Numbered from the stretch's first letter, positions 20,775 to 63,513 are shown. The stretch is DNA of 64,000 nt from Chiloscyllium plagiosum (GCF_004010195.1 NC_057755.1:895023-959022), one strand, 5' to 3'. The notes: generated by a model from the sequence alone, not told the origin. Made by a program: numbers and translations.

Positions 20775-21682
20775 TCAATTTGGTGCATTGACTAATTGGA
20801 TAATGGATGTAAATGGATATTTCACAATGATCTTGAGCTGGTTTCTGAACTTGGACTGAGTTGCCCCATAAATAAATGTATTTGTGCAGCAGCTTAAATG
20901 TTGAAGAGTATCTCCAACTTCACTAAATATGTATTCGGAATTGTTATAATCTCTACCACTCCTGCCCGTAATGCGATAATACAAGAAATGCAATACATAT
21001 ACCAACCACAGAAGAATGAAACTTGCAGATATGGTAAATAACAATATCACAGATTTCCTTCTGCTCTCCATTTCTGGATCACTGTAGTTCTCCTTCTTGC
21101 TTTGATCCTTCAATCCCTTACGGACTTGCCTAGACAGTAAAATGTGTCTGATTGTCAAGACATTGAACAACAGAACCAGAAAAAATGGTAGCAGAGGGGT
21201 GAGAATCGTGTCAAACCAATCAAATCCTGCCCATCCGGCCTCAGTGTAATAGCTTGGTGTTACAAAACAAAACCATTCAGTGTCGTCAATTTTCTTTGCA
21301 GGTTCAAGTGGAAAGTAAAATGGAATACTTTTTAAACACAGCAGTGAGCATGTAGTTGCTAGAATTACACACGCTGTTTTCTCAGTGCAATATTTTGCTT
21401 TCAATTTCTGGCAGCATATGGTCACATATCGATCAAAGGTGAAAGTGACAGTGAGCCAGACGGAACAATCTGTAGCGGCATGGCGCAACACATTAGTGAC
21501 GCGACACACAGGGGTGAGGTACAGGAAACACAATGGGGCATAATAAGAAGCAACCTTCCACACAATTACATCAGTGAAAATAAACAACAGATCTGCTATT
21601 GCCATGGACACCAGGTAGCGAGTGGTGCAGTTAGAGAGTCCGCACTTTCCATGGGATAATATAATAATCGCCACCAAATTAA
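20775..21682 (-). CDS. Exon 2 of an intact GPR139-like class A (rhodopsin-family) GPCR, 324 aa with exon 1
   Basis: Open frame (ORF 20775-21755) with hydrophobic TM segments: NLVAIIILS (TM1), YLVSMAIADLL (TM2), DCSVWLTVTFTFDRYVTIC (TM3, DRY), KSIPFYF (TM4), PLLPFFLVLLFN (TM5), LLFTISASFILLW (TM6), LSCCTNTFIY (TM7). Acceptor tctttcag|TT at 21683/21682 joins exon 1 in phase 1. The pattern resembles GPR139/GPR142 (ANILTVIILS, YLLALAAADIL, TSIWITVPLTIDRY, SIPYYW). The ORF-track N-terminus upstream of 21682 is intronic. Confidence 0.92.
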
Positions 21683-22687
21683 CTGAAAGATGGAAGTTCA
21701 AAAATGAATCACAATTAAATTCAACATCATATTGCACAACATCACACTTAAACAATAAATTCTATACTTTAGTTACAAAGTGGGTGCGTTTTGTCAAATC
21801 AGAAGTCGAGCGTTTTCAGAACATTTGATACCAACCTCTGTTCAAGTACAATTCTCCCATTTGCACATTTAGTGAAATTGGGCAGGCATACAGACTCAAA
21901 CCTCCCAGCAGGTGTGTTCAAAAGGAAATGTTGCAATAAGAGTCGAGTTTTCTGAAATCATTTTGCTAAGCTGTTTCTATTAAATTCCACAATGCATACA
22001 AAAGCAACCAGAATTGTTGAACTGAGCTGCCAATTCATCACAGATCATCCCTCTAAATGCCAAAAACCCTTTGTGATCAGACCATCATGGTGCAAACCAT
22101 CAAGGTGAAAAACTAGCCAGTGGCAACGTTTAGAACTCGCCATAGTGTCAGAAATCATATCTCAAGGGGGCCATGTGCTTTCCATATGTTGCGTAAAAAT
22201 CTGACCTGGTGAAAGGCTGCAAATAGGGGATGGGTGAAAGGAAAGGGCTGACGATATTTATGAAACACTGGCATGAACAGTGGTGTAAACAGGTCAAACG
22301 AATGGGGATTGTGTTGGCAACGAGTTGGTGAGTTTAAATATGATGTTGGTGGGAAATTATCGCATGAAATGGAATGGGAGAAATTAAAGATATGAGGCAA
22401 GTATCAAACAGGGTCCTTTGAATAAAGGGAAGTGATGGAAACTTCAAACAAATTCCTTGCAGTGAATCCATATGGAGCTAATCGGGGGAATAATGCAAAG
22501 ATAGCCATTGTAGTACCGGGTCTAACAAAGTAACTGAATAAGACTGGAACAAAGACAAATGCACAAGCGCAGCAACACCAGAGCTATGAGAGGTTCTACA
22601 CCAACACGGTTTTAGTGGGGATGCCTGTGGTGTAAAATTCCAAGCAGTGGAATGTGGTGAAACGGTTAAAAATTATGTCCCAATACA

Positions 22688-23078
22688 TGTGTGAATCTAA
22701 CCGGAATGGAGGTGTTGCTTAGTCCCGTGTGAATCTTCTTATCTGTATGTAACCAGAATGGAATGTGTTTTTTAGCCTTGCTCTGCTGTTCACATGAATG
22801 TTTATATCTGGAAAAGAGTATATCAGCTGGAAAAGTCTCCAGTTCGGAGAGTCTGCTCCGGGGTTACGTTTAACCGCCGAGCGTGGGTTGTTGGCAACCG
22901 CTCTACGAGAACTGACGGCTCCCAGTTTTGGTAACATGTAGAGTGAGTATAAGCCAGACCCGTTGTGGCGACGCTGCGGGGAATAAAATGCCCATATTCT
23001 AGCAGACTCGCCTCTTGGTCGTTTGTTCTGTGTCAGACTACTCTCCTACGAACCTGACCTTGAGAATTTTTTAAAACA
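22688..23078 (+). mobile_element. Probable solo LTR (ERV-like) in the GPCR intron
   Basis: TG...CA-bounded segment of about 390 bp, richer in CpG than its flanks, with TATAAG (~22948) followed by AATAAA (~22982). No clear target-site duplication. Confidence 0.5.
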
Positions 23079-24214
23079 ATGCCTCACTGTTTACACCCAG
23101 CAGCCATGCAAACATCCCTTACCACAGCGTCTCCACGCACAGATTAGCACCAGGAAATGTGGTGCTATTCATTTCTAGAGCCGAGCCGTTGTTTAACAGA
23201 GAATTCCAGCAGGAACGTGTCAATGAGTCAAAATGAAACAATTTCAAATGCCGCTCTGTATCTAACAGGAAATGATTGATGAAAGCTGAGAGGGATAGGG
23301 ACTGATGGATCCTCTCAGAGAAGATCCCAAGCACTGATTATTTTATTCAGCTGGGTTTGACTGGGCCTTCCACCAGTTAACGGAAGATCAACATGGAGAA
23401 ATGTGTTAGTTAACTTCTCGGTGACAGTTCCAAGCTCAGGGGGAGGTAATTCATTCGGGGTATGAAAGGGTGTAAACAGAATAAACTGATGGATAATGGT
23501 TCAAAACTTGAAAAGAAAATGAGATTTGAAAAGAGGAATTAAATGGTTTAATAATAGTGAATAATTTCACAACTAACGTTTCATATTAATGTCATGTCAG
23601 GAATAATACACAGACATTATAATTCTAAGAATCTTATGAATGAACTTTTAGAGGTGAACAATCAAGAAAAATATATTTAAGATGCATTTCGTGTGCTCAG
23701 AGGAAGGCATCATGATTCATTGAATATGAATACTGTGGCTGTTACTGTCTCAGAAATTAGTAAGTATTTTTTTTTACCCTATTGACAACTTAGTTATAAT
23801 ATGTTTCACTTGTTCAGCAGTGATCAAGCATCAACCAATTATTTCCAATCAGTTTCGTTTTCTCAATTCATTTCGAATTTGTTTGGATGTATAAAACGTG
23901 ATGACCACTCCATTGAATGGAAAGTTTCACAATAGAACTATCAGATTCATTCTACTTAGTGACCTACAGTCAGCACAATGTGAAAGCGACAATAATCCCA
24001 GCTAGGCATGGTCAATGGAGGCAGCTGATCCATTTCTGAAAGTGAACCAACCGGTTTAATTGACACTTTAAGCTTCAGTCTATCTAATATTCTTCTTTTT
24101 GTCGGACTGCGACACTGAGCTCTATTTCATTGGTATATGAGGGTAACTTTGACCAGCGACGTAATTACAAAAGGGAACATCTGAAATACGAACATAATGT
24201 TATTGTGAGTTTGA

Positions 24215-24410
24215 TTTGGAGGTGCCAGTGTTAGACTGGGGTGGATGAAGTTAATTGTCACACAACACCAGGTTATAGTCCAACAGGCTTTTTGGAGGAA
24301 GTAGCGTTCGAAGCATTGCATGATGAAGAAGCAGCGTTTCTAAAGTTGGTGGTTCCAAATAAACCATGTTCCACTATAACCTGGTGCTGCGTGCTTTTTT
24401 ATAACATTGT
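24215..24410. repeat. Inverted pair of Penelope-type termini (degenerate hammerhead)
   Basis: cacaacaccaggttatagtccaacagg ... catgttccactataacctggtgctgcgtg inverted arms around tgatgaagaagcagcgtttctaaag. Confidence 0.6.
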
Positions 24411-24591
24411 GAGCTTGAGCACCATCTTAAAAGAGTATTGTTAAAAACAGGATATTGGACTGTGCAAAATTATGTCATTGCTCTCAATTCTGATTATTTT
24501 GCCAGCATGTTACATTAGCACTCACAGGCAAAAGAAAACACAGAAAGTAGCTCAGAGACACATTTTCACTTTTCCTCAGCAAAACACTTAC

Positions 24592-24658
24592 CAGGAACGC
24601 CAATCACAGCCAGGATAGTGTTGTATATTTTCAGGACAGTTTCAGTTGGATAATGCAT
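24592..24658 (-). CDS. Exon 1 of the intact GPR139-like GPCR (MHYPTETVLKIYNTILAVIGVP+G)
   Basis: acagaaaATG...GGCGTTCCTG|gtaagt. 67 nt (22 codons plus 1), spliced in frame to exon 2 to give IGVP-V-NLVAIIIL. Confidence 0.9.
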
Positions 24659-25329
24659 TTTCTGTACGAATTTATGCTTCACTTCGCTCTGTAATGTTTC
24701 CCTGGATTAAACTTTAAGTCAGTGGTTTGCCACAACCCATAATTAATATCCTCTGCGGTATTCCCCTGGCAACAGAGGTTGCTGCATCGTTCATTAATAA
24801 AAAACAAAATGCAAACAGCGCAATGCGCATCCGAAGTTGTGAAGTTACGTGTTTACTGCTGCAAATGCCTTGTAAAACTCCGAAAGCTGCAAAATTCTAA
24901 TTGTACAAGTTATCTGATCGACACTGAAAGCTGTTTCACCGCGGAACTGTTTTCAAAACACAATTTAAATGGTATTACTCCCATCTTTATAAATTTATTG
25001 TTTTAGAGGCTTGCTTCACTCGTCTGTGGCTATTCAATGAGCATCTATCTCTAAGTAAAACAGTGGGTGCATCAGCAATGCATCACTGTGCTAAAGGTTG
25101 TCTTTTCTAAGTGTGAACCTTTGGTTAAATGTTTGAAGAGCTTAGCTGAGGCAATGTGTTGTAAACTTAAGCTTAGACAAGATCTGACAACAATTCAACG
25201 TTACAAACTGATGCAGTTTCTCAATCCAAAAAAACCATTGGAGAATTTCCAAATTACATTTGGTCTCATAACAGGAAACAGTCGAGAGTATGATTTTGAT
25301 TTGATTTAATCCTGGAAAATAGAGTCACC

Positions 25330-25980: not shown

Positions 25981-25984
25981 GACG

Positions 25985-27160: not shown

Positions 27161-27179
27161 TTAGAATCCCTACAGATTA

Positions 27180-27632: not shown

Positions 27633-27649
27633 GGATATCAATGAGCTTG

Positions 27650-28087: not shown

Positions 28088-28420
28088 AGAGAAAGTGAGG
28101 TCTGTAGATGCTGGAAATCAGAGCTGAAAATGTGTTGCTGGAAAAGCGCAGCAGGTCAGCAGGATTCCTGAAGAAGGGCTTATGCCCGAAACGTCGATTC
28201 TCCTGTTCCCTGGATGCTGCCTGACCTTCTTAGAAGACCAAACCAAATACTACTGGAGAAAGTCAGCAAGTCTGGCATCATCAGTGAAGTGAAGTCTGCA
28301 TTAACATTCCAATTCCAGTGACCTCTGGAAAAACTCAGCAAGTCTGGCATGAATAGGGAATAGAAGCCAGCATTAACATTTCGAGTCCTGAGACCCATCT
28401 TCAGAACCCTACCGATCAAC
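28088..28420. repeat. Cluster of Penelope-type termini in both orientations
   Basis: gaaaatgtgttgctggaaaagcgcagcaggtcag (reverse arm) joined to cctgaagaagggcttatgcccgaaacgtcgattctcctg (forward arm), then two copies of cagcaagtctggcat...gcattaacatt. Confidence 0.7.
28161..28204 (+). ncRNA. Minimal type I hammerhead ribozyme motif
   Basis: CUGAAGA (28168-28174), A, GGGC-UUAU-GCCC stem II, GAAA (28188-28191), C, GUC (28193-28195). Flanks GGAUUC/GAUUCU can form an imperfect stem I, and stem III is the palindrome ACGU. Confidence 0.72.
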
Positions 28421-28559
28421 ATCATTTTTGTGCCTACAGCACATGGATTGCCGCGATTCGAGAGGATAACTCAACATCGCCAGCCCATTGAAAGGAGAAT
28501 CAGGCAATAACTACTCACTCTTTAAATTGCACTGAAATCTCTGGAAAGCAACAACAAAG

Positions 28560-28650
28560 GAAGGAAGAAGGGCTTATGCCCAAAACGTCTATTCTCCTGC
28601 TCCTTGGATGCAGTCTGACCTGCTGCGCTTTTCCAGCAACACATTTTTAG
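28560..28650 (+). repeat. Penelope-type terminal repeat, degenerate hammerhead
   Basis: gaagaagggcttatgcccaaaacgtctattctcctgctccttggatgcagtctgacctgctgcgcttttccagcaacacatttt. Confidence 0.65.
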
Positions 28651-28960
28651 CTCTAACCCTCTTCTTTATCCACTACACCCCCAATTTTGGTGTCATCTGC
28701 AAACTTACTAACTGCATCTCTTATGTTCGCATCCAAATCATTTATGTAAATGACAAAACTTTGCGGACCCAGCACGGATCCTTGTGGCACTCCACTGGCC
28801 ACAGGCCTCCAGTCTGAAAAACAACCCTAGCAATGATCATGCGTATAACTGTGTCATTGGAGACCAATCCACTGTATAAGTTGGGGTCATTTATATTGTA
28901 TTGTCGAAGAACACCTCCTAGAGGTTTCAGTTTGTTGGACGATTGTTGCTTCCCAGAGAA

Positions 28961-31900
28961 ATGGGGCATTTTTCAATGTACAGGATAGAAGCCGTTTTGT
29001 ATTCTGTCCTTGCAGTCATTGGAGTTCCTGGTAAGCTGGTGTTTAACCTGTAACAGTGTACCTAAGTGTTAACTGTGCTGCTGCTGTGCTTGATATTACT
29101 CTCCCTGTTAGACACCTGTCCTGAAGCAAAAGTTGATTCAAGCAACAATCTCGTCCCTTTTCGTTCTGTATCCTCGAGATTAATTCCGTCCATAATGATA
29201 TCTGTTGACCAAACGGTGATATTGTTGTTGGATTACTCTCTGTACTGAATCTGAACAATCATGTGTCTTTGCTGAGAGCCCAATGATCTGTGTGTGGTTT
29301 CATATAATGGAACAAACTTGTCCGACAATATTTCTACGATCGTTTTTCAATTATTATAAATGAGACAGAGCATGCTCTTTTTGTTAAGAGGAAAAACCGG
29401 AATGTATGTTTTGACGAGTAACATGGTTCATTTTCAGCTGAGGTTAAATTGATCTTGACGGCTCCTCATGTGAAATATGCTTCTGTTTTCAGTGTACCTG
29501 ACTTTGATTCAGATGTTTCATCTTATTGTTGACTCTTATACATCTTCTCAGATTCGCTTTAGCAAATCCAATGTTGAGCTGCATTATAAAATGAAACGGG
29601 TTTATGTAATGCTACACACAACATCTTTCAAAATTATGAACTCTATCTATCTGTAGATTAACAATTGCAGGAGTCAAGCTGATCATTCATTGATTAATGA
29701 ATCATTCCATCTAACATCAAACATTATAAATCCAGAAGACTGTGTTTCAGTTATTGGGATTTTGTCTGGAAAAGACTTCTGCTTCTGCCTTTTTCATGTA
29801 CTTTCGATGAAGTGGGTGATACATTTGGATGGATAGAATCTTGGGTGATCTATCGAATCATTTGCTTATTCCCAAACACCACAGCATTAAAGAAGCTGAA
29901 TCTGAGAGTGAGTTCATTGAAGACGGGGAACGTAAGAAGATTGGATTTACAAGATGGTTGAATTTCGTCTGTGTAAAACGATCACTCATAAAAAGTGTAA
30001 CTGCTCTCACGTTTAAATACGCAATTCAAAGATGCAGAGGGAGGAGTATCGAAGAGAATGGAAAACAGAGAAAAATCGAGTACTTTAAGTAACAACAAAA
30101 TATATCCCGCAGTGTTGTTAAGGATAGATGACTGAAGTGTGCAGGATAATTATAGAGAGGATCTGTGATCGTAAACTATTGGGACGATGTTGCCGGAGTG
30201 AATGTGAGGTTTCTATTTTCTGTAGTTTGTTTCAGACAACTACCTTTTACTTTTGACTGAATAAATAAATACATCACGATTAATTTTTCAATGCAAGTGA
30301 CTTATTGTTGAATTATTGCACGTTGAAATCTCTCTGACGCTGATCTAAATTTATGGTGAGGCATGTTCCCAGAAGCACACGCTAATGTTCTGTAATGTCA
30401 TGTATTCATTGAATGTTGTTACTGGAATGTATGGATTAACTTTCTGATAGAATTCTACTGCAGTCCGTCCCTATGAATTCCATCTTCTCACTTCTTCGTA
30501 TCGTGTCCTTTGCATCTGCCCCATCTTCAGGTTTTCTGCAGTTGCAATAACCAGTTCCAGCTCGTCCATGTCTTTTCCTTTGTTTCCATTCCAATCTCAC
30601 TCATTTTCTCAGCCTGTAGTTACTTGATGCAATCTAATATGAGCATTAAGGTCACTCTGTATCTCCTGTTTTTTTTAACCATTATTTGCATCAGCCTCTG
30701 GCAGCACTCCTGAACAAGAAGAGCAAGCTGGCCACACATTCTTCTGGACGTGAGCATGCCAGGACATCGACAAAACCAGGTTAGATTTAAAACAATTACA
30801 AGCTCCTCAAAAAACTCTCCCTTCCCCAACACTCTCACTCAATGCCAGCGGAAACATCCCTTTCCCTCATCGCTATTGGCCTGTCAATGTTTTATTTGTT
30901 TCAATGATCTGCCACTGACTTAATTCACTTCTGTCCCATTTCATCTTCGAGAATTATTATCTGAATATTTCTGTAATGGCAAACGGTTTCCACAGAGTAA
31001 TCAATTTATTTACACTTTTCAATAGTACAAGATGGAAACTTCACTTATTGTAAACTGTTATTCTGGTTGAAGGAAATTTCTGTATTTTCTTTTCTCTATT
31101 TTCCAGCTAACGTGGTAATAATTGCGATTATGCCTTGAGGAAACTGTTGGCTCTCCAAGTGTATCACTAACTACCTGGTGGAATTGGCAGTGGCTGATCT
31201 TCTTAGTGTTATCATGGATCCCATATTGACTGCCATCATTGTGATTTATTTTACACATTCCTTCCTGCACATGACTACAGTTTGTAATCTAATGTTATTC
31301 CTGGGATTTGCAGTCACGGTGGTTTTGGTCTGGCTGACAGTTGCTTTCACTGTTAATCGATTTGTGATGACTTGTTGCAAGAAGATGAAAACAAAATATC
31401 GCACAGAGAAAACCGCAGCCATAGTTGTTGGAGCACTGATTGCTCTGGGATCTTTGGAAGCTCTTCCCCAGTACTTTACAATCGGACCATAGTCCGTGAT
31501 TGACAACGTTCCCTCGTCTTGTGCAAACAAACCAAGTTTCTTTACTTCTATTGCATGGGCAGCATAGTAGTTGTTTCACTTTATTTTTAGCCCGGTACTT
31601 CCCTTCTTTTTAATTTTGCTGCTCAATGCCCTTACGGTCAGGCATATCCTAATGTGTCTGCAGGGAACTTGGAGGTCGGAGCAATAGAGAGCATCACGAG
31701 GATTTAGAAATGGAGAACCGAAGGAAAACCATCAATTTCCTCTTCTGTATATCTGGCAGTTTTGTCCTGCTATGGATGACCCGGGTTGTTTATAAAATCT
31801 ATACACGAATTGCTGGTATCCGCAGTTATTTCTCTTACACTGGCCCTCGGTTTATTAAAGAATGCGCATCAATGATGCTGCAGCTTCTCAGTTCCTGTAA

Positions 31901-32010
31901 CAGGAGATCTATTTATGCCGTGACCCAGACCAAATTCAGATAGGAGCTGAAGAATGGCCTGAAATTCTCACTCAACCTAATCGTTAACATATGTACATCA
32001 CAGGATAGAG
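28961..32010 (+). pseudogene. GPR139-like GPCR pseudogene (exon 1 28961-29030; exon 2 31107-~32010)
   Basis: Exon 1 MGHFSMYRIEAVLYSVLAVIGVP+G|gtaag. Exon 2 after ttccag: ANVVIIAIMP*GNCWLSKCITNYLVELAVADLL...LVWLTVAFTVNRFVMTCCKKMKTKYRTEKTA...MENRRKTINFLFCISGSFVLLW...LQLLSSCNRRSIYAVTQTKFR*. In-frame stops at 31136-31138, 31490-31492 and 31941-31943, among others. Confidence 0.9.
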
Positions 32011-41879: not shown

Positions 41880-43260
41880 TTTACTGTCCCACCTGACATT
41901 GCGTTAACGGCAACATAACACAGAATCCCATCATCTCAGTCATTGATAGAGATTATAAATGGATGTGTTCCAAGTAGTTGTTCGTGTGGCACTCACTAAT
42001 AGCAGCCTGACAAACTCAAAATGTCATATTTATTCCTGCTGTCTGTTTTCTGTCCTTTGCCAGTCCTCACACCAAGTTCCATTCCCCTATTCCTAAAGGC
42101 CTCATTGACAACATTGACTCCAGTGCAAATATTTCCAGAATTTCATATTTCTGCATTCTTGTGCGTGTGCAAATCCCTACCTCAACTCACCTCCACATTT
42201 ACCAGCAGGCTGTTCAACCACTTCATCAGTGAGCTGTTCTATAATTCTCCACTATACATACGCAGTACAGTGCAGGTAGCAGAGAATCAGTCAATCCCAT
42301 CTGCTGCTGACCAACATGTGTGTGCCTCAGAGTCAGCTCTGAAACATGTGCAAAAGACTCTTATAAAGGTGCGACGTTCCCTATTGATTGGAGCTAATCG
42401 AATCATTGCGTTTTGAGTAGTTTTACCTGCTTCAAGCATTGTCTTAATTGGAGATTTTATATTCTATTGAGAAGTTGTACCTGTACAAGGTGGGGAATTC
42501 TATTGAGATATTGGATTTGTAAAAGGCGACAATGTGTCATCTCAAATAACCAATCCCTTGTGGGAACAGCCTTTGGTAAACAGGAAAAACACAACCCAGT
42601 GCTGAGAAGAACGTTTTTCAGAGTGACACTCAAAAACTGTAATTAGATTTCCAAATGGTCAGAGTCAAAGGAAGAGAGACTCTGAAATAAAATGAGACTT
42701 CAAAGTGGGATAAATGGTGTTGCGGTGTTCATGCTGGTAGCTATAGGCAGCAAAGAGGCTCAGGGGTTAGCCCTGCTGCCTCACAGGGCCAGCCGGTGGG
42801 TCTCAGTGGGATACTCTTTGCATTGTGAACTCGAAGGGCCGATTGGCCTTCTTCCACACCGTAGGGATTCTATGAATTTATTCAATATGCATTTTCTAAT
42901 ATTTCCAATTGACCAATTGAGATTTGCATGATCCAATGAACCTCAGTTCCAAACATATTCCATCACAAAAGCTCACTGTCGTCACCTGTTTGTTCAAATC
43001 CTCAACAAAACATGAATTAAAACAAGATGTAATGTAACAGTCCTCTCCGCGATGCCAGCAGATATAAATGAAGGACTTTGGGATTATATTACCTCGCCAT
43101 TTAGTACAAAGAGATTACCTGTGGAAAGAGATTCAGGAAGAAAATGCAGTTTTCGTTGAAATATGTGCTGAAAACTTTGTACACGACCCTTCTGATTGTA
43201 ACAATTCCTGGTAAGTGCCTTGCGCCATTGAATGTGTGTCAATCTCTCTGAGGATTCTTT
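41880..43260 (+). repeat. Duplicated promoter plus exon 1 block, copy A (paralogous to 56480-57865)
   Basis: Colinear matches, e.g. atctcagtcattgatagagattataaatgg (41933 and 56521), cagagtcagctctgaaacatg (42328 and 56913) and caattcctggtaagtgcctt (43202 and 57804). Confidence 0.9.
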
Positions 43261-46200
43261 ACTGTTTTACTCTGCAACAATTTGTTTGTTATGTAGAAAA
43301 TGCAATAACGTTGAGCGGGAGTTTTATTCCGGTTTTTGAGTGCATAAGCAGTGGGCTTCTCTGTGCTTCTGAATTTAACAGTTAGGTTATCGGTATTTCT
43401 GTAACCATGGCAATTTGTTAGAAAACTGGTTTTTGAAGTTTGGTTGTCTGGTGAATGACTTTGTCCATGAATGAGCTTTTGTATATTTTTGATTGTTTGA
43501 AACCGAGAATGGTAATAATGGAGACTCAAAGATTTGTTGGAGACTTTTGAGTTCTGACATTAAAGAAACCCCCTTAACTGAGAAACTGTTAGTTTCACTT
43601 TTATCTTTTTCGTGATTTCTTTTAGCTTCCGTAAGACCCAAGAACTGGCTGAATGTATGAATCTGTGCTCATGCAAAGGGAATTAGAGTTTTAGTCAATT
43701 ACATTACCTTGGAATGAAAATGTTGTGTTCATCCCAGGCCTTAGAATAAAGTAAAACTCTGAAGAGATTATTTAAAGCTGCATACATTAACACTCAGTTG
43801 TATAGTAGCTTCAGGAAGGCATTTACTGAAGTTCCAGTTTATAAGTGGAAGTCACAATCACTTAGCCAAGTGTTAAATGCAGGGATTCTGGTGGGAGTAT
43901 TACACGAGGTGTCTTTTCTTAAGAAAGGCACTGGAAGTGATTTTTTGCATAATATATCAAAATCGTTTTCTTGCATTAATGCATTACTTTGAAATTAATG
44001 AGAATTTCACATTTACTGTGTGTTCATAGTCTTTGAATTTGCGTTACAAATATGTTGTTTGGTTTAATCTATCATATCATCATTTCTTTTATAATTAACT
44101 TCTGCTTTGTTGTTGAAGTAGTATTTGCAGCATTATGTGAATACAATTCAGAAACAAAACACTTTGTTAAATCGAAACAAATAAAGTTGCAATCCATCCA
44201 GCTGGATTTTTGCCTGCTGCTGGCTTTTTTTATAATTACATATGCCAGTATCACAACAGAAATGAGGTTATTCAAAACATAGATTAACTCCTGAGCAACG
44301 GATTAAATAACACAACACTTTGATCACACTGTGTCCCAATTACACCACTCCAGATCCATTATATACCGTAGAACATGAACCGACATTCACACTAATATAT
44401 CATTCCATTTTAGCCCTCCCCAAATTACCACCCGATCATCCTGCAGCAGAGGCAAACCAAAACATTTACCCTCCATTCCCTGTCAGACCTGTAACGCTGG
44501 AAATATACAAGACAGTGGTTCGCTCACAGCTGCGGTTTTGTGCACTATTCTGATCACCAGGTAATAATGAGGATAGAATTGCACTCAGGAGACTGCAGAA
44601 GAGATTTACCAGAATTTTGCTTGGATGTGGAAACTGTTGCAGCATTGAGGAAAGTTGGATAGAGTGCAGGTCATATTCCCGAGAACAAAGGAGAATGAGA
44701 GGTGATGTGATTGAGGTATACAAAATAATCAGGGTCTTGGTTGGAGATCTGTCACTCCACACGGAGGGACACTTACCAGAAGACGCAGAACGAGAATACT
44801 TGATGGAAGGATTGTAGGGGACTTGAGGGCTTACCCTTTCATCCAGAATGTGGGGGTCTGTATGATATTCACTTCACTGTTTGGGGAGGCTTGAGGTAAA
44901 GCCCCTCAACTCATTGAAAGCATATATGTTCACAGGAAGTGAAGTCTCTGAGAAAACTGCCGGCCAGGTGTTGGAAAGTGGGAATAGAACAAGCAGCTCA
45001 TTTATTTACTTGATGCAGACATGAATTACAACTTTCAGTGCCATAACATTTCTACGATACTATGCGATTTTAGAAAGACTGAGGAATGTTAAAATGAATT
45101 CACTTTGTGGGATGAATAGCCTGTTTCTCTGCCGTACATTTCCAGCAGATGTCAGGGATCACTGGAATACTGTGGAATGTTAAAGTAATTCCAGAGCGCT
45201 GTGGCCACCTTTTAGTTGCTCACTGAAGAAATGTTTGAGGTTTCATAATTTTTACACTGCATGACGTAATTTTTCATGGGGAGGAATAATTTTAACTGAG
45301 TTGACAAGGTAAGAAATGATTATCATACCATTAGGTTAATATTGCTTGCGTCATTTAGGCATTCCCGTTACAAAATGAAGTGCTTTTGTTTTAAAAGATG
45401 TGCTGCTAAATCACGTTCTGTCCATCAACTGCAGAGTGTTCACATTATCATTTCAAATGTTAATTGCCACTGACAATATCAGCCCACAACAGAGAGTTAG
45501 ACAGAACAGGTTTATATTATCCTATACTATAAACGGATTGGAGCAGATGCATTCAGTAATTGCTTTGTAGTGAATTGTTTGGTTTGCATAATGTACTTTA
45601 TTCATAAATGTCATCAAGTACAATACAAAACAATTTGCGTCAGACAATGAACCCAATACAATAAAAAGTCAGGTTTCCCTAATTGAATTTTGCATTCATT
45701 TACTTGAATGTCAAAGCTAAATTAGAACATTTGATAAAATGACAAGGAATTGTTCACTTTCCTCAACAAGACTTGAGCTACTCAATGATTTAATCTATTC
45801 TCAGTTGAACCCCACAGAGTTAGCTTAGTTAGTGGCTCGTGCATTTAATGATGAAGCAAATCTTTCACAGCTCCGTTAATCTAATCCATTGAATAATTGC
45901 ATCTTCCCAAGTGCAGTAACTCAAATTTGTTGCAATATAGTAAAGAGGAGTACCCCAAAGTGCGAACAGCATTTGAAAAAACGTTCCAATGTTGATGAGT
46001 ATCAGCGCTTTGAACCTCAATTCCATTTTAGAAATGAACCAGTGTCCTTTGTTTGCAATGATACGGTCTTGCGCAGGAGAAAAACTGGGTCAACGTCTTG
46101 AGTACAGTGATGAATATTCAGATGAAGATATTACTTTGAAAATTGATTCCATTAACTCTTTTTCACTCCCCACTGATTCGGCCATACCTGTTGAGTACTG

Positions 46201-47716
46201 CCAGCCATTTGTATTTCTGCTTGCTGTTTGCAGCATCAACATCTCTGATTTATTTCAATAAAATGGCTCAATTTTCAACCTGTCTCCTCGAAACATAGAA
46301 ACTGTACATACAGAAGAGATGCTTCAGTCCATCAAGTCCGTGCTATTAAATCTACACGACATCTATGTGCATTCGTCTCAGTTTCCAACACTGTACTCAT
46401 TGTCTCCAATGCTATTACGCCTCTAGTGTTAGTCTGAGCAGCTTTAAAAGATCGTGAGGTTTCTTGCATCAACTACCTCCCAAGTACTGAATTGCAGGAC
46501 CCTCACCACTCTCTGTGTGAAAGCCTTTTCTTCACATTACCTCTAAACCTATGGCCTTTTACCTTCAGAATTATACCCGCATATCATCTGATAATTCCCT
46601 GCCCTTCCTCACGTAAATCAGGAGTGAGCAGAATTGAAATGAATTTGGCACAGCGCTGTCATTTTTAGCTTTGAGCTCTGAACCCTCCCAACTGACCCAG
46701 TTGGGCGCGAACATTTCTCACTGCTGTCTGAGCAGACACAGAGAACGTTTGATCAGTAACGTTTAGTTTCAACTTTACCTTCTGTCTCTTTCAGTTAATT
46801 TCCTGGTGACTTTGGACCTTGCATGTGGTAAGCGTGGCAGCTCTAACTGTACAACGCGTTGCCTGTTGGCTATGGCAACATTGAATATATTGTTTCTTCC
46901 CACGGAGATCATACTGCAGCAATTCGAACCCTATTACTCCTGAAAATCTTACCTGAACATCACCCCTGTGTGCAATGCTATATTTGTGCTAGCTCATTCA
47001 GCCACAGACTGTTCCATATGATTCACTGCCCTTTTCTCCTTTGATCATTTTGTAACTATTTGCTGCCAGAAAACAAAAACAAACATTGGACAGAGAAAGG
47101 CTTGGCTGTGGTTCTAGCTGCAACTGGCATTCCGCACTTGTTGAAAAAGTGTTCCCTTCTATTTTCGGTTTGAACCTGGGAGGATATTTGACAATGTTGA
47201 CCGGTATTACCACGTAAAGTCAAGTTATTTTACTGATCCTACGTGGCTGGAATTCAAGTGGTTTGGTATCATAGTAACCCTTGTGTTCATCAACAGAATT
47301 AACATTTGTGTTAATTCTGTTGATGAACACTCTGATGGCCAGGTACATTTTAGTGGCCAGTCGAGCCTGCAAGACCCTGATGGGTCAGAGGAAGGTCAAG
47401 AGTCAAAAAGACGCAGAGTTGAAGAGCCTGAGGAAGTTGGTGATTTCCGTCTTCACCATATCCATAAGCTTCGTACTTCTGTGGGAAGTGTGCGGTGCAA
47501 ATATATTGTACTTTCGCATTAAAGAAACAAATCGTGGGAAGTACAAATATCAACGTGTTTTTCTTTACATCGGCGAAATGCTGACGTATCTGAGCTGCAA
47601 CATGAGCACATGATTTTATACAGCGACTCTGCACAAGTTCAGACTGAAGTTCAGGAACGCAATGCATCAACTGGTCACGTAAATTCTTCCCTTATTGACT
47701 CAGCAAACAACTGAGA
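43144..47716 (+). pseudogene. GPR139-like GPCR pseudogene (exon 1 43144-43210; exon 2 46795-~47716)
   Basis: Exon 1 MQFSLKYVLKTLYTTLLIVTIP+G|gtaag (67 nt). Exon 2 after ctttcag: VNFLVTLDLACGKRGSSNCTTRCLLAMA...YYS*KSYLNITPVC...ATDCSI*FTALFSFDHFVTICCQK, then ORF 47281-47613 (DAELKSLRKLVISVFTISISFVLLW...GEMLTYLSC). Stops and frameshifts. Pairing of this exon 1 with this exon 2 is inferred from order and phase. Confidence 0.85.
44490..45065 (+). mobile_element. Degenerate CR1 3' end
   Basis: LEIYKTVVRSQLRFCALF, ALRRLQKRFTRIL and REQRRMRGDVIEVYKIIR. Confidence 0.75.
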
Positions 47717-50290: not shown

Positions 50291-50294
50291 AATA

Positions 50295-56479: not shown

Positions 56480-57865
56480 CTTTTAATGTCCCACCGAACA
56501 TGTTAACACATGATCCAATAATCTCAGTCATTGATAGAGATTATAAATGGCTGTGTTCTCGACAGGCTAACTTCGTGGCACTCACCAACACCAGCCCGAA
56601 ACAGGAAGATGACATATTTATACCTGCTATCTATTTTCTGACCTTTATCAGTCCTCACACCAGTTCCCATTTTCCCATCACGACAGGCCTCATTGAGAGC
56701 ATTGATTTCCACTCAAACATTTCCAGAATTTGCCATTTCTGCATCCCTGTGTGTACAAATCCCTCCGTGGTCTCACTCCTCCACCTCGCTTGAAACTGTT
56801 CCATCCGATTATCAATCAGATGTTTCAGGTTTCTTCTGTGTACATGTGCAGTACACTGCAGGGAACAGAGAATAACTTATCCCTATGTATGTTATACAGA
56901 TCGTGTGTGTCTCAGAGTCAGCTCTGAAACATGTTCAGGACACTGTTATCATGGGAGCAGGCTCTGTATTGATTGGACCTTATGCAACCTTTGAGGATAT
57001 TCTCAGTGCATTGTTTTACTTGGTAAACCTATTGCCTTAAATGGAGAAGTTATATTCGATTCAGAAACTGGATGGGTGCAAGCTGAAGAATTCCATTGCG
57101 GTGTGGGATTTATTAAAACCTGCAATGTGTTGTCTCCATTCACCAACTATTATCGCTTCATAGAACAGCCACTGTTAACCAAGGAAACCACATCCTCTAT
57201 TGAGGAGAACGTTTCTCAGAGAGACACTCAACAATCAGAATTTAATTTCCAAATTGGCAAAGGCAAAGGAAAGAAGCCAATGAAATAGAATGAGGTTTGA
57301 AAGTTGGATAGATGGTATTGGGGTTCAATGCGGACATACAGGTGGCAATGTGGTTCAGTGGTTAGCTCTGCTGCCTCACAGGGCCAGCGGGTGGGTTTGG
57401 GTGGTATACGCTTTGCAGGGCAGGTGTGGACACGATGGGCCCATTGGCTTGCATCCACGTTGTAAGGATTCTATGATTTTATTCCATGTGCATTTTCCAA
57501 TGTTTGCTATTGACCGATTGAGATTTGTACAATCACTTAAAGCCCAGTTCTAAAAATACTCTCTCACAACTGGGAGTTAACTCACCACTGTCACCTGTTC
57601 AAATTCTTAAAAAAATAATTGAACCACATTGTAATATTTCAACCCGCCAGGCGATGCCAGCAGGTACAAATGAAAGGCTTCGAGATTGTATCACCTTGGT
57701 ATTGAATACAGAGAGATTGCCTGCACAAAGTGATTCAGACAGAAAATGACGTTTTCATTTCATCATGTGCGGAGAATATTTTACATGACCCTTCCAATTG
57801 CAGCAATTCCTGGTAAGTGCCTTACATCATTGAATTTGTGTGAATCTGTTTGAGGATTCCCTGCT
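56480..57865 (+). repeat. Duplicated promoter plus exon 1 block, copy B (paralogous to 41880-43260)
   Basis: See copy A; colinear similarity over about 1.4 kb, including the same degenerate SINE remnant (42750-42875 and 57340-57475). Confidence 0.9.
57746..57812 (+). CDS. Orphan exon 1 of a fourth GPR139-like gene (MTFSFHHVRRIFYMTLPIAAIP+G); exon 2 not found in the window
   Basis: acagaaaATG...ATTCCTG|gtaagt, 67 nt, same size and phase as the other first exons. Confidence 0.75.
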
Positions 57866-57939
57866 GGTTCACTGTGCCACTGACAATGGCACGTGGGCAT
57901 GTTGTGCCCAGAAGACACACAGTGGCAGACGATCAGTAA

Positions 57940-60965: not shown

Positions 60966-60979
60966 ACGAGCCCCAAGCT

Positions 60980-61697: not shown

Positions 61698-62970
61698 CAT
61701 ACACACACAGTATCCCAGTCATAATGGGAGTTATAGAAATACACTTAGGCAGACAATAAGACGGCATCTACATCTCCACACGGAGAAATACAATCAATCT
61801 TCAATATCGGAACACATCTATACATAGACACCAAATCACGCAGACATTTTAACATAAGGAAATGAAGTCATACTGAGAGACATTACACACCAATACGCAA
61901 GGACTGAGAGAAATATTAGTATACACTCACATGACCACACTCAAATACAGTTATAGAACTATATACACAATTAGGTACAGTCATAGAGCCATAATAATAA
62001 TAAAATACAAAGACACACGCACTGAGGCATGGAGAAATCCTGCTGGTGCTCAGAAAGATCTGAACATAATGACAGATAGACAAACAAGATTTCAGCAATA
62101 GACTCACCAACTTGAACAGGAGCATAACTAGACAGTGACATACGCAGACTCCCAGAATAATATACTAAGACTTACAGACAAGCAGACATGGAGTCACAGA
62201 ACCATCATGAGACGTTGACATTAACGCACACATACACAGGCACACACATACAAAACATGTTATAGCAATGTAACCATACGCAGTGATGGACACAAATACA
62301 CAAAGAACATGCACACAGACAGAAACATGCACACAGACAGAAACACATCAAATGCACTTGTGAAAAACGCACCGATACAGTCCAATAAAGCACACAAGCA
62401 GACACATAGATAAAAGCATTCACAGTCAGAAGCAGACATACTCAGTAACCTACCCGAACAGCTATATCTAGTCACAAAATAAGCTTCCAAACGCACACAG
62501 AGAAAAAAAAAGCACACTGACACAGAAACACATTCACAAATGGTGGCACAAGGGAAAAAAAGGGAGATACATGCACAGAATGACATTCCCACAAAGACAA
62601 TGAAAACACTCACACACAGACCCTCACACACCGAAAGGGAAAGACACACAGACAATCTCCTTCACTGACACACAGAGAGAGAGAGAGGGAGAGCTTAGGA
62701 TGAAGAGAGGCGGAGAGTAAGAGATAGAGAGAGACAGAGAGAGAATCAGAGTGCTGCAGATGAAGGGACACTGAACTTTACAGAACTGTAATCAATATTG
62801 TGCCAAGGTACTGCTGGTTGCCTCAAAGCATGTTGTATTTTCCAAAATAACTTCATGCAATAAAATCAGTGACTGAAGAGATGAGAAGGGCATTTGAGCC
62901 AAAGTATGTGAACAATGCTAAACTGAGTCCACTGTCCAACTGTGTCAATGAGATAGAGACGAAGGGAGAT

Positions 62971-63014
<44 letters not shown>

Positions 63015-63260
63015 TGAGTGAGAGAGAGGAGATAGAGAGAGATGGAAAAAGAATTAGTCAGAGCGACAAAGAGTGAGAGAGGCAGACAGAGTGGAAGAGA
63101 TCGAGAGAATCCGAGAAAAACTGAGGCAGAGATACATAGCGAGAGAAGACAGAGAAAGACGAAGAGAGATTGAGAGATAGTCAGAGTGACAGAGGAAGAG
63201 ACTGATACGGAGAAACTGAGAGATGTGGAGTGGGACAGTGATAGATGTAGTGAAATAGAG
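61695..63260. repeat. Long degenerate (CA)n-rich then (GA)n-rich low-complexity region
   Basis: acacaca-type degenerate repeats to ~62670, then gagagaga runs (62673-62745 and 62950-63260). Confidence 0.85.
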
Positions 63261-63513
63261 TGTTAATTTCGGAAGAATGTCATTTTAAAGGAAAGGGTAG
63301 AACTTAGTTTCAAAGGGCACAAACTTGTACCTGCAGAAACAGTTGCACAGATTTTGAAGGAAACAACATTTTCAAGGAAATGAAGGAGAGAGGAGCATAT
63401 ACTGAATGGAGATTATATATATATATGAGTAATGTCAGATCAAATTAAAACTCAGAAAATAACATGCTCTAGTCTATCTGATGAGCCAGTACTTTAATAC
63501 TTTTGCAGCAAAG
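63261..63513 (-). repeat. Close copy of the intact GPCR's 3' UTR segment (20463-20710)
   Basis: tgttaatttcggaagaatgtcattttaaaggaaagggt...ctgatgagccagtactttaatacttttgcagcaaag appears at both loci with only scattered substitutions and a (TA)n expansion. Confidence 0.92.

What the first reader, a model, noticed from the sequence alone, without database searches (positions are those of the whole stretch)
20775..63513. Rapidly turning-over cluster of two-exon GPR139-like orphan GPCRs: a candidate lineage-specific receptor repertoire
Seen in sequence: within about 43 kb there is one intact gene (324 aa), two pseudogenes, one orphan first exon and a duplicated 3' UTR. The first exons share a 67-70 nt length and end xxxP+G|GTAAG (phase-1 intron inside TM1), and the exon-2 copies share family motifs (GKCGLSxCxTxYL, ICCQKLKxKYCTEKTA, DPEMExRRKS). 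The paralogs differ strongly in extracellular loops and TM segments. Established: mammalian GPR139/GPR142 are single-copy receptors activated by aromatic amino acids (L-Trp, L-Phe). Inference: tandem expansion, high divergence and frequent pseudogenisation are the pattern of chemosensory or immune-sensing receptor families. This may be an uncharacterised cartilaginous-fish family of amino-acid or peptide sensors rather than GPR139 orthologs.
Basis: partly seen in the sequence, partly recalled or inferred. Interest (0 to 1): 0.8.

Follow-up and report, generated by a model that had tools for sequence, protein, structure and literature searches.

The report
Huge shark receptor family, one slice
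This stretch of shark DNA holds one working gene, two dead copies and two leftover fragments of a cell-surface receptor family that has more than two thousand copies in this genome, is only a distant cousin of the brain receptor GPR139, and likely serves as a so far unstudied set of chemical sensors.

Summary
The window has one intact two-exon gene (324 aa), two multiply broken copies, a promoter-plus-first-exon relic and a 256-base copy of the intact gene's 3' flank.

The genes are not GPR139 orthologs.
- Two protein searches of the own genome gave 229 distinct full-length exon-2 places, and every scored candidate was a hit.
- A 35-base codon pattern for the family's TM3 motif matches 2,332 times, against 9 for the reversed control.
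- Named relatives are in sharks, a stingray and a skate. The nearest outside relative I found is a salamander gene.
- A family profile hits only GPR139 among solved structures (E 2.6e-14).
- The arginine at 6x51 that defines GPR139/GPR142 is Y in this gene and absent from 84 of 89 family rows.

Selection results:
- The intact gene is under purifying selection (dN/dS 0.21 against its nearest paralog).
- Positions matching GPR139 ligand contacts vary most between paralogs.
- A young dispersed subfamily elsewhere in the genome shows signs of diversifying selection in the extracellular loops.

Expression is unknown. "Rapid" local turnover is not shown, because the pseudogenes are old. Seven literature searches found no description of the family. 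This scan has noted the family before, on other DNA of this genome and of other genomes.

The parts
20775..21682 (-). Exon 2 of the intact receptor gene (301 codons plus 2 nt of the split codon, stop at 20775-20777). It encodes the second half of TM1 through helix 8.
   Evidence: Open frame. Pfam 7tm_1 E 1.5e-24. Acceptor TTTCAG at 21683-21688. dN/dS 0.21 against the nearest paralog. AlphaFold2 model pLDDT 88.2.
21683..24591 (-). Phase-1 intron (2,909 nt) inside TM1. It holds a high-copy repeat at about 22707-23340.
   Evidence: GTAAGT donor and TTTCAG acceptor. DNA contigs run across the exon-2 boundary. RNA reads pile only on the repeat.
24592..24658 (-). Coding part of exon 1 of the intact gene (67 nt, 22 codons + 1 nt).
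   Evidence: Pattern scan. The same 67-nt exon was found upstream of 14 of 20 paralogs elsewhere in the genome.
24659..24880 (-). Predicted promoter of the intact gene: TATA-like TATTAAT 24742-24748 (-90 from ATG), O/E-like TGCCAGGGGAAT 24760-24771, GCAGCAAC 24778-24785.
   Evidence: Alignment of 18 family promoters. Motif positions. Sequence conservation is weak overall, 59% against a 54% baseline. No transcript evidence.
20405..20774 (-). Predicted 3' UTR of the intact gene (ATTAAA 82 nt and AATAAA 348 nt after the stop). 20463-20713 is the stretch that is duplicated at 63261-63516.
   Evidence: The UTR status is predicted, since no RNA read covered it.
28961..29030 (+). Exon 1 of pseudogene 1 (70 nt, MGHFSMYRIEAVLYSVLAVIGVP + G | GTAAGC).
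   Evidence: Its upstream region aligns poorly with the family promoter.
31107..32006 (+). Exon-2 remnant of pseudogene 1: at least 5 in-frame stops, one frameshift near 31660-31740, DRY changed to NRF.
   Evidence: tblastn in two frames, 42% and 38% identity to the intact protein. Three-frame reading.
43144..43210 (+). Exon 1 of pseudogene 2 (67 nt), with its promoter region from about 41916.
46795..47643 (+). Exon-2 remnant of pseudogene 2: at least 4 in-frame stops and a frameshift near 47300-47420.
   Evidence: tblastn in two frames, 35% and 42% identity. Three-frame reading.
56504..57880 (+). Promoter plus orphan first exon (coding part 57746-57812, MTFSFHHVRRIFYMTLPIAAIP + G | GTAAGT). 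No exon 2 follows.
   Evidence: 72% identical over 1.4 kb to 41916-43278. No plus-strand exon 2 within 22 kb downstream.
63261..63516 (-). Isolated 256-nt copy (93% identical) of the intact gene's 3' flank, with no coding sequence beside it.

Best explanation
The window holds one intact two-exon gene, two old pseudogenes, a promoter-plus-first-exon relic and a 3'-flank fragment of a shark-and-ray-expanded class A receptor family with over 2,000 motif-bearing copies in this genome; the family descends from the GPR139/GPR142 superfamily but has lost that group's defining pocket arginine, and it likely works as a ligand-diversified sensor repertoire.

Shown:
- the gene anatomy;
- the size and spread of the family;
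- the distant link to GPR139;
- purifying selection on the intact gene;
- invariant G-protein-side motifs (DRF/Y, W6x48, NTxxY) beside variable pocket and loop positions;
- signs of diversifying selection in the extracellular loops of a young subfamily;
- short promoter motifs at fixed positions shared by deeply diverged paralogs.

Inferred:
- Each receptor would bind its own extracellular ligand at the loop-and-vestibule surface. These are probably peptide-like or other water-borne compounds, given the beta-hairpin second loop and the peptide-receptor-like fold.
- It would signal through a G protein.
- The shared promoter would place the family in one cell type, most likely a chemosensory one.
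- The locus changes by birth-and-death duplication, which leaves dead copies and fragments such as those seen here.
For: Family size:
- 131 of 131 scored candidates hit at E <= 7e-105, out of 8,529 first-look candidates.
- a divergent member gave 121 of 121 at E <= 2e-72. 23 places are shared, so 229 are distinct.
- the codon pattern for VWxTxxFxxDR[F/Y] matched 1,169 + 1,163 times, against 4 + 5 for the reversed control.

Taxa: named homologs come from 12 shark species, a stingray and a skate.

Relation to GPR139:
- The family profile hits only GPR139 chains at E <= 1e-10 (2.6e-14).
- The family and GPR139 both lack Pro at 7x50.
- Outgroups from coelacanth, teleost and salamander keep R or K at 6x51, whereas 84 of 89 family rows lack R.
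- Passages of PMC8807744 say R6x51 occurs only in GPR139/GPR142 and is critical for activation.

Functionality:
- dN/dS is 0.21 at dS 0.46 against the nearest paralog, and 0.19-0.31 in all 10 pairs.
- At least 102 of 131 top copies have an open exon 2.

Diversification:
- The 17 positions matching GPR139 contacts have mean entropy 1.71 bits, against 1.02 for other outer-half TM positions (p 8e-4).
- The outer TM half is more variable than the inner half (p 1e-6).
- In the young subfamily, dN/dS is 0.89 in the loops and 0.22 in the inner half.
- Sites that changed on internal branches show 115 nonsynonymous against 20 synonymous changes on terminal branches (omega 1.88, p 0.004). In 500 random branch splits the median omega was 1.57, and it exceeded 1 in 99% of splits.

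Structure: AF2 model pLDDT 88.2 with an ECL2 beta-hairpin. The best Foldseek matches are peptide and chemokine receptors, with GPR139 at ranks 19-20.

Gene unit and promoter:
- A 67-nt exon 1 lies upstream of 14 of 20 paralogs.
- In 18 promoters, TCCC(N2-4)GG sits at -102..-123 in 10, GTTGCAAC with at most 1 mismatch at -119..-151 in 9, and a TATA-like box at -80..-101 in 9. These motifs are rare elsewhere in the 600 nt upstream.
Against: - No expression or ligand evidence of any kind.
- The window's own clade shows only purifying selection at the coarse level tested. dN/dS is about 0.2 in both the outer and inner halves.
- The positive-selection signal comes from another subfamily, from 10 sequences, with parsimony ancestors. 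It passes p < 0.05 in only one of four preset settings (omega 1.88, p 0.004; the others gave 1.50, 0.93 and 1.58 with p 0.17, 0.62 and 0.11). Gene conversion was not excluded.
- Higher variability of the outer half is common to many GPCR families, and I had no control family.
- Promoter conservation is weak overall (59% against 54% baseline identity). The O/E-like match is degenerate, and the GTTGCAAC palindrome could equally suggest a C/EBP-type, leukocyte-type promoter.
- A passage of the catshark paper says the 50 genes most specific to its 'brain & olfactory epithelium' library included no GPCRs (PMC11979771).
- Some of the 2,332 matches may be other GPCRs or duplicated assembly pieces.
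Confidence: 0.55

Rival explanations
1. The family is an immune or leukocyte receptor repertoire. Like chemokine and formyl-peptide receptors, its members would sense host or pathogen peptides on blood cells, and host-pathogen conflict would drive the loop diversification.
For: - With the single protein, chemokine receptor CCR2 scores as well as GPR139 among solved structures (7e-09 against 1.1e-08).
- Chemokine receptors are among the best fold matches.
- Diversifying changes sit in the extracellular loops, as expected for peptide or protein ligands.
- The promoter palindrome GTTGCAAC is a near match to a C/EBP-type site (my recall; positions).
- An earlier scan note reports C/EBP-type sites in a chimaera cluster (e1-9514568; unchecked here).
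Against: - With a family profile only GPR139 remains at E <= 1e-10.
- I know of no immune GPCR family of this size (recall).
- No expression data either way.
Confidence: 0.2
2. The family is a set of neuronal peptide or amino-acid receptors used in the brain, as GPR139 is in mammals, multiplied in cartilaginous fishes to serve an enlarged neuropeptide system.
For: - Nearest solved relative is GPR139.
- The GPR139/142 group is sister to protostome receptors for peptides with aromatic amidated ends (PMC8557429, passages).
- The fold resembles peptide receptors.
Against: - More than 2,000 copies, with about 60% pseudogenes in a sample (15 of 25 assessable), is not the pattern of neuropeptide receptors.
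- The GPR139/142 pocket arginine is lost in 84 of 89 rows.
- Pocket-matching positions vary from copy to copy.
Confidence: 0.1
3. Most of the expansion has no function for the organism. A receptor gene unit has been copied passively around the genome by segmental duplication or a mobile vehicle, and the open copies are simply young.
For: - A young subfamily at about 90% nucleotide identity, flanks included, is spread over four chromosomes.
- 15 of 25 assessable sampled copies are broken.
- This window holds fragments: an orphan exon 1 and a 3' flank piece.
Against: - dN/dS is 0.19-0.31 in ten paralog pairs, including pairs with dS up to 0.9, and 0.22 in the inner half of the young subfamily. 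Both show long-term constraint on the protein.
- G-protein-side motifs are invariant in 27 of 27 own paralogs.
- The homology between copies fades gradually, with no sharp ends or transposase seen.
- The intron is retained, so the copies are not retrocopies.
Confidence: 0.07

Closest known systems
GPR139 and GPR142 (human class A orphans activated by L-Trp, L-Phe and some peptides; PDB 7vug, 9m42)
   Same: - Only solved relative at E <= 1e-10 with the family profile.
- Class A fold.
- No proline at 7x50: NFFLY in GPR139, NTxxY in the family.
- The TM1 sequence after the intron site is alike: N[IL]L..IILS.
   Different: - About 20% identity.
- R6x51, said to be unique to GPR139/142 and critical for activation (PMC8807744), is Y in the window's protein and absent from 84 of 89 family rows.
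- F109, H187 and N271 are not kept.
- P6x50 is mostly lost.
- Thousands of copies instead of one each.
Non-mammalian GPR139-superfamily genes: salamander 'probable GPR139' (P0231), coelacanth XP_005988539.1 (P0234), teleost P0241. These are possibly the 'GPR210A/B' subtypes named in PMC6504862.
   Same: - Nearest relatives outside cartilaginous fishes at 28-32% identity.
- In the tree one branch (SH-aLRT 95) sets the 56 chondrichthyan rows plus 2 salamander rows apart from the other 13 rows.
- No proline at 7x50.
   Different: - These genes keep R or K at 6x51 and fall into small clusters of 1-5 members.
- The coelacanth protein is closer to human GPR139 (E 1.8e-18) than the shark protein is (1.1e-08).
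- Whether they equal GPR210A/B was not tested.
Lineage-expanded class A chemoreceptor families (odorant receptors, teleost TAARs, lamprey TARLs; also rodent vomeronasal FPRs and MRGPRs, recalled)
   Same: - Hundreds to thousands of copies with many pseudogenes, in clusters, evolving by birth and death.
- Variable ligand-facing positions beside a conserved G-protein side.
- Short shared promoter motifs.
   Different: - A different GPCR lineage.
- A conserved intron inside TM1, where those families mostly have single-exon coding regions (recalled).
- Variability is strongest in the extracellular loops rather than deep in the helix bundle.
- No evidence of expression in any sensory organ.

Membership tests
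Class A (rhodopsin-like) GPCR | 7tm_1 profile match over the whole domain | tested here: met
   PF00001 E 1.5e-24, residues 1-271, profile positions 2-260 of 260.
Class A (rhodopsin-like) GPCR | Seven-helix fold with helix 8 | tested here: met
   AF2 model pLDDT 88.2, pTM 0.84, with helices in the expected order; TM1 is only half present because exon 1 was left out. At least 500 Foldseek matches to GPCR chains, TM-score about 0.7.
Class A (rhodopsin-like) GPCR | Microswitch motifs: D/ERY at 3x49-51, W6x48, NPxxY at 7x49-53, TM3-ECL2 cysteine pair | tested here: inconclusive
   DRY/DRF, W6x48, N7x49, Y7x53, C3x25 and the ECL2 Cys are invariant or nearly so. P7x50 is T in 86 of 89 rows and P6x50 is present in only 9 of 89. 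GPR139 also lacks P7x50.
GPR139/GPR142 orthology group | Arginine (or another positive charge) at 6x51, said to be unique to the pair and critical for activation (PMC8807744) | tested here: not met
   Y228 in the window's protein. In 89 chondrichthyan rows: Y 43, F 8, N 8, R 5, others 25. Outgroups have R or K.
GPR139/GPR142 orthology group | Other ligand-contact residues (F109 3x33, H187 5x43, N271 7x38, E108 3x32) | tested here: not met
   H67, D157, D257 and R66 in the window's protein. These columns are among the most variable in the family. The mapping comes from the HMMER alignment.
GPR139/GPR142 orthology group | One-to-one, single-copy orthology | tested here: not met
   229 distinct full-length places from two searches and 2,332 motif matches. 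Whether a separate canonical GPR139 gene also exists in this genome was not tested, because no bona fide GPR139 sequence could be brought in as a query.
GPR139/GPR142 orthology group | Activation by L-Trp/L-Phe | not testable with these tools
   Needs a cell-based assay.
GPR139 superfamily (wider clade including non-mammalian subtypes) | GPR139 is the nearest characterised relative | tested here: met
   With the family profile only 7vug/9m42 reach E <= 1e-10. With the single sequence GPR139 ties with CCR2. No bona fide GPR139 was in my tree.
Chemosensory receptor repertoire (functional class) | Large, clustered family with many pseudogenes | tested here: met
   Of 30 sampled young copies, 10 are open, 15 broken and 5 partly masked.
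Chemosensory receptor repertoire (functional class) | Diversifying selection on ligand-facing sites | tested here: inconclusive
   Pocket-matching sites are the most variable. In the young subfamily a branch-split test gave omega 1.88 (p 0.004) in one setting, and 0.93-1.58 (not significant) in three others. The window's own clade shows dN/dS about 0.2 in both halves.
Chemosensory receptor repertoire (functional class) | Expression in sensory cells, one or few receptors per cell | not testable with these tools
   No RNA holder was listed, and the RNA runs laid gave no read on the exons. This is not evidence either way.

The most novel reading that the evidence does not exclude
Sharks and rays, textbook examples of vertebrates with almost no odorant receptors, carry a hidden repertoire of a thousand or more working class A receptors. 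It was built from a GPR139-like ancestor, is switched on by one shared promoter in chemosensory cells, and is the missing main receptor set for elasmobranch smell or taste. That would make it one of the largest receptor families in any fish.
Probability: 0.3. Interest if true: 0.9.

Novelty: new variant of a known kind. Interest (0 to 1): 0.7.

Why it matters
Published shark genome papers stress a paucity of GPCRs and only two or three odorant receptors in cartilaginous fishes (passages in PMC8455134, PMC11979771 and 10.64898/2026.08.31.747588). A family with over 2,000 copies, constrained coding sequence and variable ligand-facing surfaces would change that picture. It gives a concrete candidate for how these animals sense chemicals, or pathogens. 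It is also a natural experiment in how a single amino-acid/peptide receptor lineage can be turned into a repertoire after losing its anchoring arginine. The question is directly testable with tissue RNA-seq and in situ probes, because public annotations already list the genes as 'probable GPR139'.

Tried and rejected
- **Expression.** No RNA holder was listed for the intact gene's exon 2 and 3' flank. The four holders X1-X4 are DNA, since their contigs cover intron and intergenic sequence. A single-cell RNA run (X5, about 2% of it read) and a presumed RNA run (X7) put reads only on repeats and none on exon 2 of the intact gene or on pseudogene 1. X6 laid nothing at all. The tissues are unknown, so none of this says anything about expression.
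- **First AlphaFold2 job.** With 44 close relatives the model was poor (pLDDT 57.7) and was not used. The second job, with 106 diverse rows, was good.
- **Fold search.** It did not separate GPR139 from other peptide-type receptors.
- **Bona fide GPR139 or GPR142 for the tree.** None of the best 150 representatives was one. P0259 and P0257 have no hit at E <= 1e-20 to the GPR139 chains.
- **Catshark supplementary tables.** Those of PMC11979771 could not be read. They may hold tissue expression for catshark family members.
- **26-base satellite array.** This window has none.
- **Exon 1 in the young subfamily.** No exon 1 of the ...P + G|GTRAG type lay within 4.7 kb upstream in 10 of its loci. 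Its first exon is unresolved.
- **Sequence-split cross-validation of variable sites** (omega 1.90). Set aside because the halves share branches; replaced by the branch-split test.
- **3' flank copy as a common repeat.** Rejected: only 3 places in the genome.
- One search failed through a regex slip and was redone. (pattern too long) was redone within the limit. (not completed) was repeated.

Full report
**What is in the window.** A translated search with the long open frame at 20778-21680 (minus strand, P0001, 301 aa) finds three exon-2 copies.
- The intact one.
- A copy at about 31107-32006 (plus strand), read in two frames at 42% and 38% identity.
- A copy at about 46795-47643 (plus strand), read in two frames at 35% and 42% identity.

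Three-frame reading shows at least 5 stops, a frameshift and DRY changed to NRF in the first broken copy. The second has at least 4 stops and a frameshift.

A scan for ATG...CCNG|GTRAG finds four first exons.
- 24592-24658 (minus, 67 nt), 2.9 kb upstream of the intact exon 2.
- 28961-29030 (plus, 70 nt), before pseudogene 1.
- 43144-43210 (plus, 67 nt), before pseudogene 2.
- 57746-57812 (plus, 67 nt), with nothing behind it.

Joining 24592-24658 to 20778-21682 across a GTAAGT...TTTCAG intron gives 975 nt, 324 aa. My script included the CAG of the acceptor and printed one residue too many.

Self-comparison of the window shows two duplications. The 1.4 kb of promoter plus exon 1 of pseudogene 2 is 72% identical to that of the orphan exon. 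A 256-nt stretch that starts 62 nt after the intact gene's stop is 93% identical to 63261-63516. That stretch occurs at only three places in the whole genome, so it is a local duplicated fragment and not a common repeat. It lies before an AATAAA at 20424-20429, which fits a 3' UTR, but no transcript was seen.

In the 20 kb on each side there are two more minus-strand exon-2 copies beyond the window's end. One of them is frameshifted and has its own 67-nt exon 1.

**How big the family is.** The window is G000:C46:895023-959022, in a 3.56-Gb genome.
- Searching the genome with P0001 gave 8,529 first-look candidates. 131 were scored, and all 131 were full-length hits at E <= 7e-105 and 54-83% identity. 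29 of them carry a flagged stop. Some of these are the natural terminal stop: of the 30 I fetched, only one had an internal stop.
- A second search with a divergent catshark member (P0162) gave 7,833 candidates. 121 were scored, and all 121 hit at E <= 2e-72. By my hand comparison 23 places coincide, so 229 places are distinct.
- Both lists were cut by the scoring cap, not by score. I therefore counted an exact 35-place codon pattern for the family's invariant TM3 end (V-W-x-T-x-x-F-x-x-D-R-F/Y). It matched 1,169 times forward and 1,163 times reverse, against 4 and 5 for the reversed control.

The two pseudogenes of this window do not match that pattern, so decayed copies are not counted. On the other hand a few matches may be other GPCRs or duplicated assembly pieces.

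Copies fill the small chromosome that carries this window. Many others lie near chromosome ends, for example at 50.7-52.5 Mb of the 53.3-Mb C26 and at 116.4 Mb of the 118.1-Mb C7.

**Who else has it.** Public proteins at 58-72% identity are annotated 'probable G-protein coupled receptor 139', with a few under other names. They come from Heterodontus, Heptranchias, Scyliorhinus (two species), Pristiophorus, Mustelus, Cetorhinus, Stegostoma and Rhincodon. There were 2,002 hits at E <= 0.001, of which 120 were listed. More distant cluster representatives come from Chiloscyllium (two species), the stingray Hypanus (there named 'vasopressin V2 receptor-like') and the skate Leucoraja.

The full-library search found 1,119 representatives at E <= 0.001 and 110 at E <= 1e-30. 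Identity then steps down to 28-32%, where the first rows from outside cartilaginous fishes appear. These are salamanders (Pleurodeles, Ambystoma, Lissotriton), the coelacanth and a teleost, each in a cluster of 1-5 members.

I built a quick maximum-likelihood tree of 71 rows. I chose 27 own paralogs, 29 other chondrichthyan rows and 15 outside rows, and left out partial and overlong rows. One branch (SH-aLRT 95) sets the 56 chondrichthyan rows plus the two salamander rows apart from the other 13. The 56 chondrichthyan rows group at 89. The window's gene pairs with a copy on an unplaced scaffold (100) inside a 35-row core clade (99). The root is not known, and no bona fide GPR139 was in the tree.

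**Relation to GPR139.** Pfam sees an ordinary class A domain. Against solved structures the single protein scores CCR2 (7e-09) and GPR139 (1.1e-08) alike. A profile of 44 family members leaves only the GPR139 chains at E <= 1e-10 (2.6e-14). The coelacanth outgroup is closer to GPR139 (1.8e-18).

I read passages of the GPR139 structure paper (PMC8807744). [quoted passage not shown]

I transferred positions through the HMMER alignment.
- The window's protein has Y at 6x51, H at 3x33 (F109), D at the H187 position and D at the N271 position.
- In a 106-row alignment, the 89 chondrichthyan rows have Y 43, F 8, N 8, R 5 and others 25 at 6x51.
- The coelacanth, teleost and four more distant outside rows have R there, and the three salamander rows have K.
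- The family and all outside rows lack the usual proline at 7x50. The family has T in 86 of 89 rows, and GPR139 reads NFFLY.

So the family belongs to the wider GPR139 lineage but fails the features that define GPR139/GPR142 themselves. With thousands of copies it cannot be a one-to-one ortholog. Passages of PMC6504862 name extra subtypes beside GPR139/142 in coelacanth, gar and fishes ('GPR210A/B'). Whether my outgroups are those subtypes was not tested.

**Is the intact gene functional, and what varies.** Nei-Gojobori estimates give dN 0.096 and dS 0.46, so dN/dS is 0.21, between the window's gene and its nearest paralog. Across ten paralog pairs dN/dS is 0.19-0.31, with no clear difference between the outer half (0.18-0.42) and the inner half (0.13-0.29) of the protein. 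The gene has therefore been kept by purifying selection.

Among 27 own paralogs, 46 positions are invariant, including DR, W6x48, N-T-x-x-Y, and D.E...RR.S before TM6. The outer halves of the helices are more variable than the inner halves (Mann-Whitney p 1e-6). The 17 positions that match GPR139 ligand contacts are the most variable of all: mean entropy is 1.71 bits, against 1.02 for other outer-half helix positions (p 8e-4) and 0.99 for all other positions (p 5e-4). I had no control family, and outer halves vary more in many GPCRs.

**A young, dispersed subfamily.** Many of the pattern matches share an identical 35-mer and are scattered along C8, and also occur on C4, C5 and C7. Ten 10-kb stretches around such matches are 88-92% identical to each other over exon 2. 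They also match over 0.5-1.5 kb on either side and over further upstream blocks, with homology that fades gradually rather than ending sharply.

Of 30 sampled loci, 10 have an open exon 2, 15 are broken and 5 are partly masked and were dropped. Their differences crowd into the three extracellular loops and the adjoining helix ends.
- With partitions fixed beforehand from the window's protein, pooled dN/dS in 5 open copies is 0.44 overall, 0.22 in the inner half, 0.65 in the outer half and 0.89 in the loops.
- With 10 open copies I counted changes on a tree by parsimony, chose sites on one set of branches and measured them on the other set.
- Sites with at least one nonsynonymous change on internal branches (46 sites) show 115.2 nonsynonymous against 19.8 synonymous changes on terminal branches. 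The neutral expectation is 76% nonsynonymous. This gives omega 1.88, binomial p 0.0044.
- The three other preset settings gave omega 1.50 (p 0.17), 0.93 (p 0.62) and 1.58 (p 0.11).
- In 500 random branch splits the median omega was 1.57 (5-95%: 1.09-2.54), and it exceeded 1 in 99% of splits.

This points to recurrent diversifying selection at some loop sites. The sample is small, the ancestors are parsimony estimates, and gene conversion was not excluded. The signal lies outside this window's clade.

**Structure.** The second AlphaFold2 job (106 rows) gave pLDDT 88.2 and pTM 0.84. It shows the expected helices and a beta-hairpin in the second extracellular loop at residues 125-140. Foldseek's best solved matches are apelin, neurotensin, somatostatin, opioid, endothelin and chemokine receptors. 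GPR139 ranks 19-20, and all have TM-scores near 0.7. A hairpin second loop and loop-centred variation fit peptide-like or other large ligands; this is my inference from recalled GPCR knowledge.

**Gene unit and promoter.** A 67-nt first exon ending ...P + G|GTRAG lies 0.7-6.7 kb upstream of 14 of 20 paralogs sampled across the genome. The split inside TM1 is therefore a family trait.

I aligned 18 upstream regions, 13 from elsewhere in the genome and 5 from this neighbourhood, and found short motifs at fixed distances from the ATG.
- A TATA-like box at -80 to -101 in 9 of 18.
- TCCC(N2-4)GG at -102 to -123 in 10 of 18, with 3 further matches anywhere else in the 600 nt.
- GTTGCAAC with at most one mismatch at -119 to -151 in 9 of 18, with 1 match elsewhere.

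The intact gene here has TATTAAT at -90, TGCCAGGGGAAT at -113 and GCAGCAAC at -127. Overall conservation is weak: mean pairwise identity is 0.59 in the core against 0.54 in upstream controls.

The TCCC..GG element loosely resembles an O/E (EBF) site, and the palindrome resembles a C/EBP-type site. Both resemblances are recalled and untested, and they point to different cell types. Earlier notes of this scan read the same promoters both ways.

**Expression.** No RNA run was listed as holding the gene, the holders are DNA, and the RNA runs laid gave no read on the exons. This is no evidence either way.

**Literature.** Seven full-text searches found no paper that describes this expansion. The terms covered GPR139 with shark, elasmobranch, cartilaginous, catshark and expansion; 'coupled receptor 139' with shark; 'GPR139-like'; shark olfactory single-cell; and Chiloscyllium with GPCR and gene family.

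Passages I read state the following.
- Cartilaginous fishes have a relative paucity of GPCRs (PMC8455134).
- The catshark has 2 canonical OR genes and 6 OR-like genes, and no GPCR appears among the top 50 'brain & olfactory epithelium' genes (PMC11979771).
- Two shark species contribute 2 OR sequences each to a 2026 preprint's tree.

Subscription journals and supplementary tables were not searched. The catshark paper's supplement could not be read.

**Verdict.** The window is an ordinary slice of an extraordinary family: one constrained gene and the debris of old duplications. 'Rapid turnover' is not shown locally, because the copies are ancient paralogs and the duplicated promoter is 28% diverged.

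This is a cartilaginous-fish repertoire derived from, but no longer like, GPR139. Its role as a sensor set is the most likely reading but rests on inference. This scan has reported the same family on other DNA of this genome and of other genomes. I scored only what I tested here.

Noticed in passing
G000 C8:0.28-25.6 Mb, C7:106-116 Mb, C4, C5 (loci L055-L084): A young subfamily (exon 2 begins VNVVTIYVLLYKDCGLSPC...) is about 90% identical in DNA, flanks included. It is scattered at roughly 0.1-0.5 Mb spacing along large chromosomes in both orientations. How a 5-6 kb gene unit with its intron was spread so widely is unexplained. I saw no sharp ends, terminal repeats or transposase.
   Followed up: partly
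G000 contigs C46, C44, C45, C47, C48, C37; ends of C26, C7, C21, C33, C42: Family copies fill several small chromosomes (10-35 Mb) and pile up near the ends of larger ones.
   Followed up: no
window 22707-23340 (inside the intron of the intact gene): A high-copy repeat with strong RNA read depth, mostly one strand (86 against 3 in run X5), and contigs ending in a poly(A) run at about 23004. It looks like a transcribed SINE-like element.
   Followed up: no
window 7535-12240: A 2.4-kb unit is duplicated in tandem at 96% identity (7535-9927 and 9856-12240). An open frame at 7146-7652 (minus strand), overlapping the start of the first unit, has reverse-transcriptase-like motifs (YMDFSK..., ADDTK). 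The first 20 kb of the window has no receptor copy.
   Followed up: no
window 28120-28654: Inverted repeat arms (28170-28230 against 28564-28624, 89%). RNA reads switch strand at 28152-28227, and there are very high contig depths. This is a palindromic repeat element just upstream of pseudogene 1.
   Followed up: no
P0001 residues 12-18, 89-98, 264-265 (window 21627-21647, 21387-21416, 20886-20891, minus strand): Conserved cysteines on the cytoplasmic face (GKCGLSxC in loop 1, ICCQK..KYC in loop 2, SCC before NTxxY). C98 is also kept in the outside relatives. Their role is unknown; palmitoylation or metal binding are guesses.
   Followed up: no
window 21682 and 21685: In three of four DNA runs the contigs read C for A at 21682 and A for G at 21685. 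On the coding strand, the 21682 change turns the first base of exon 2 from T to G, so the split codon would read Gly instead of Val. The 21685 change falls in the intron, at the C before the acceptor AG. Both look like alleles.
   Followed up: no
loci L045, L054, L055, L068, L071, L072, L081 and the 2,614 bases before the window: Several family loci contain stretches that read N. These copies could not be judged intact or broken.
   Followed up: no
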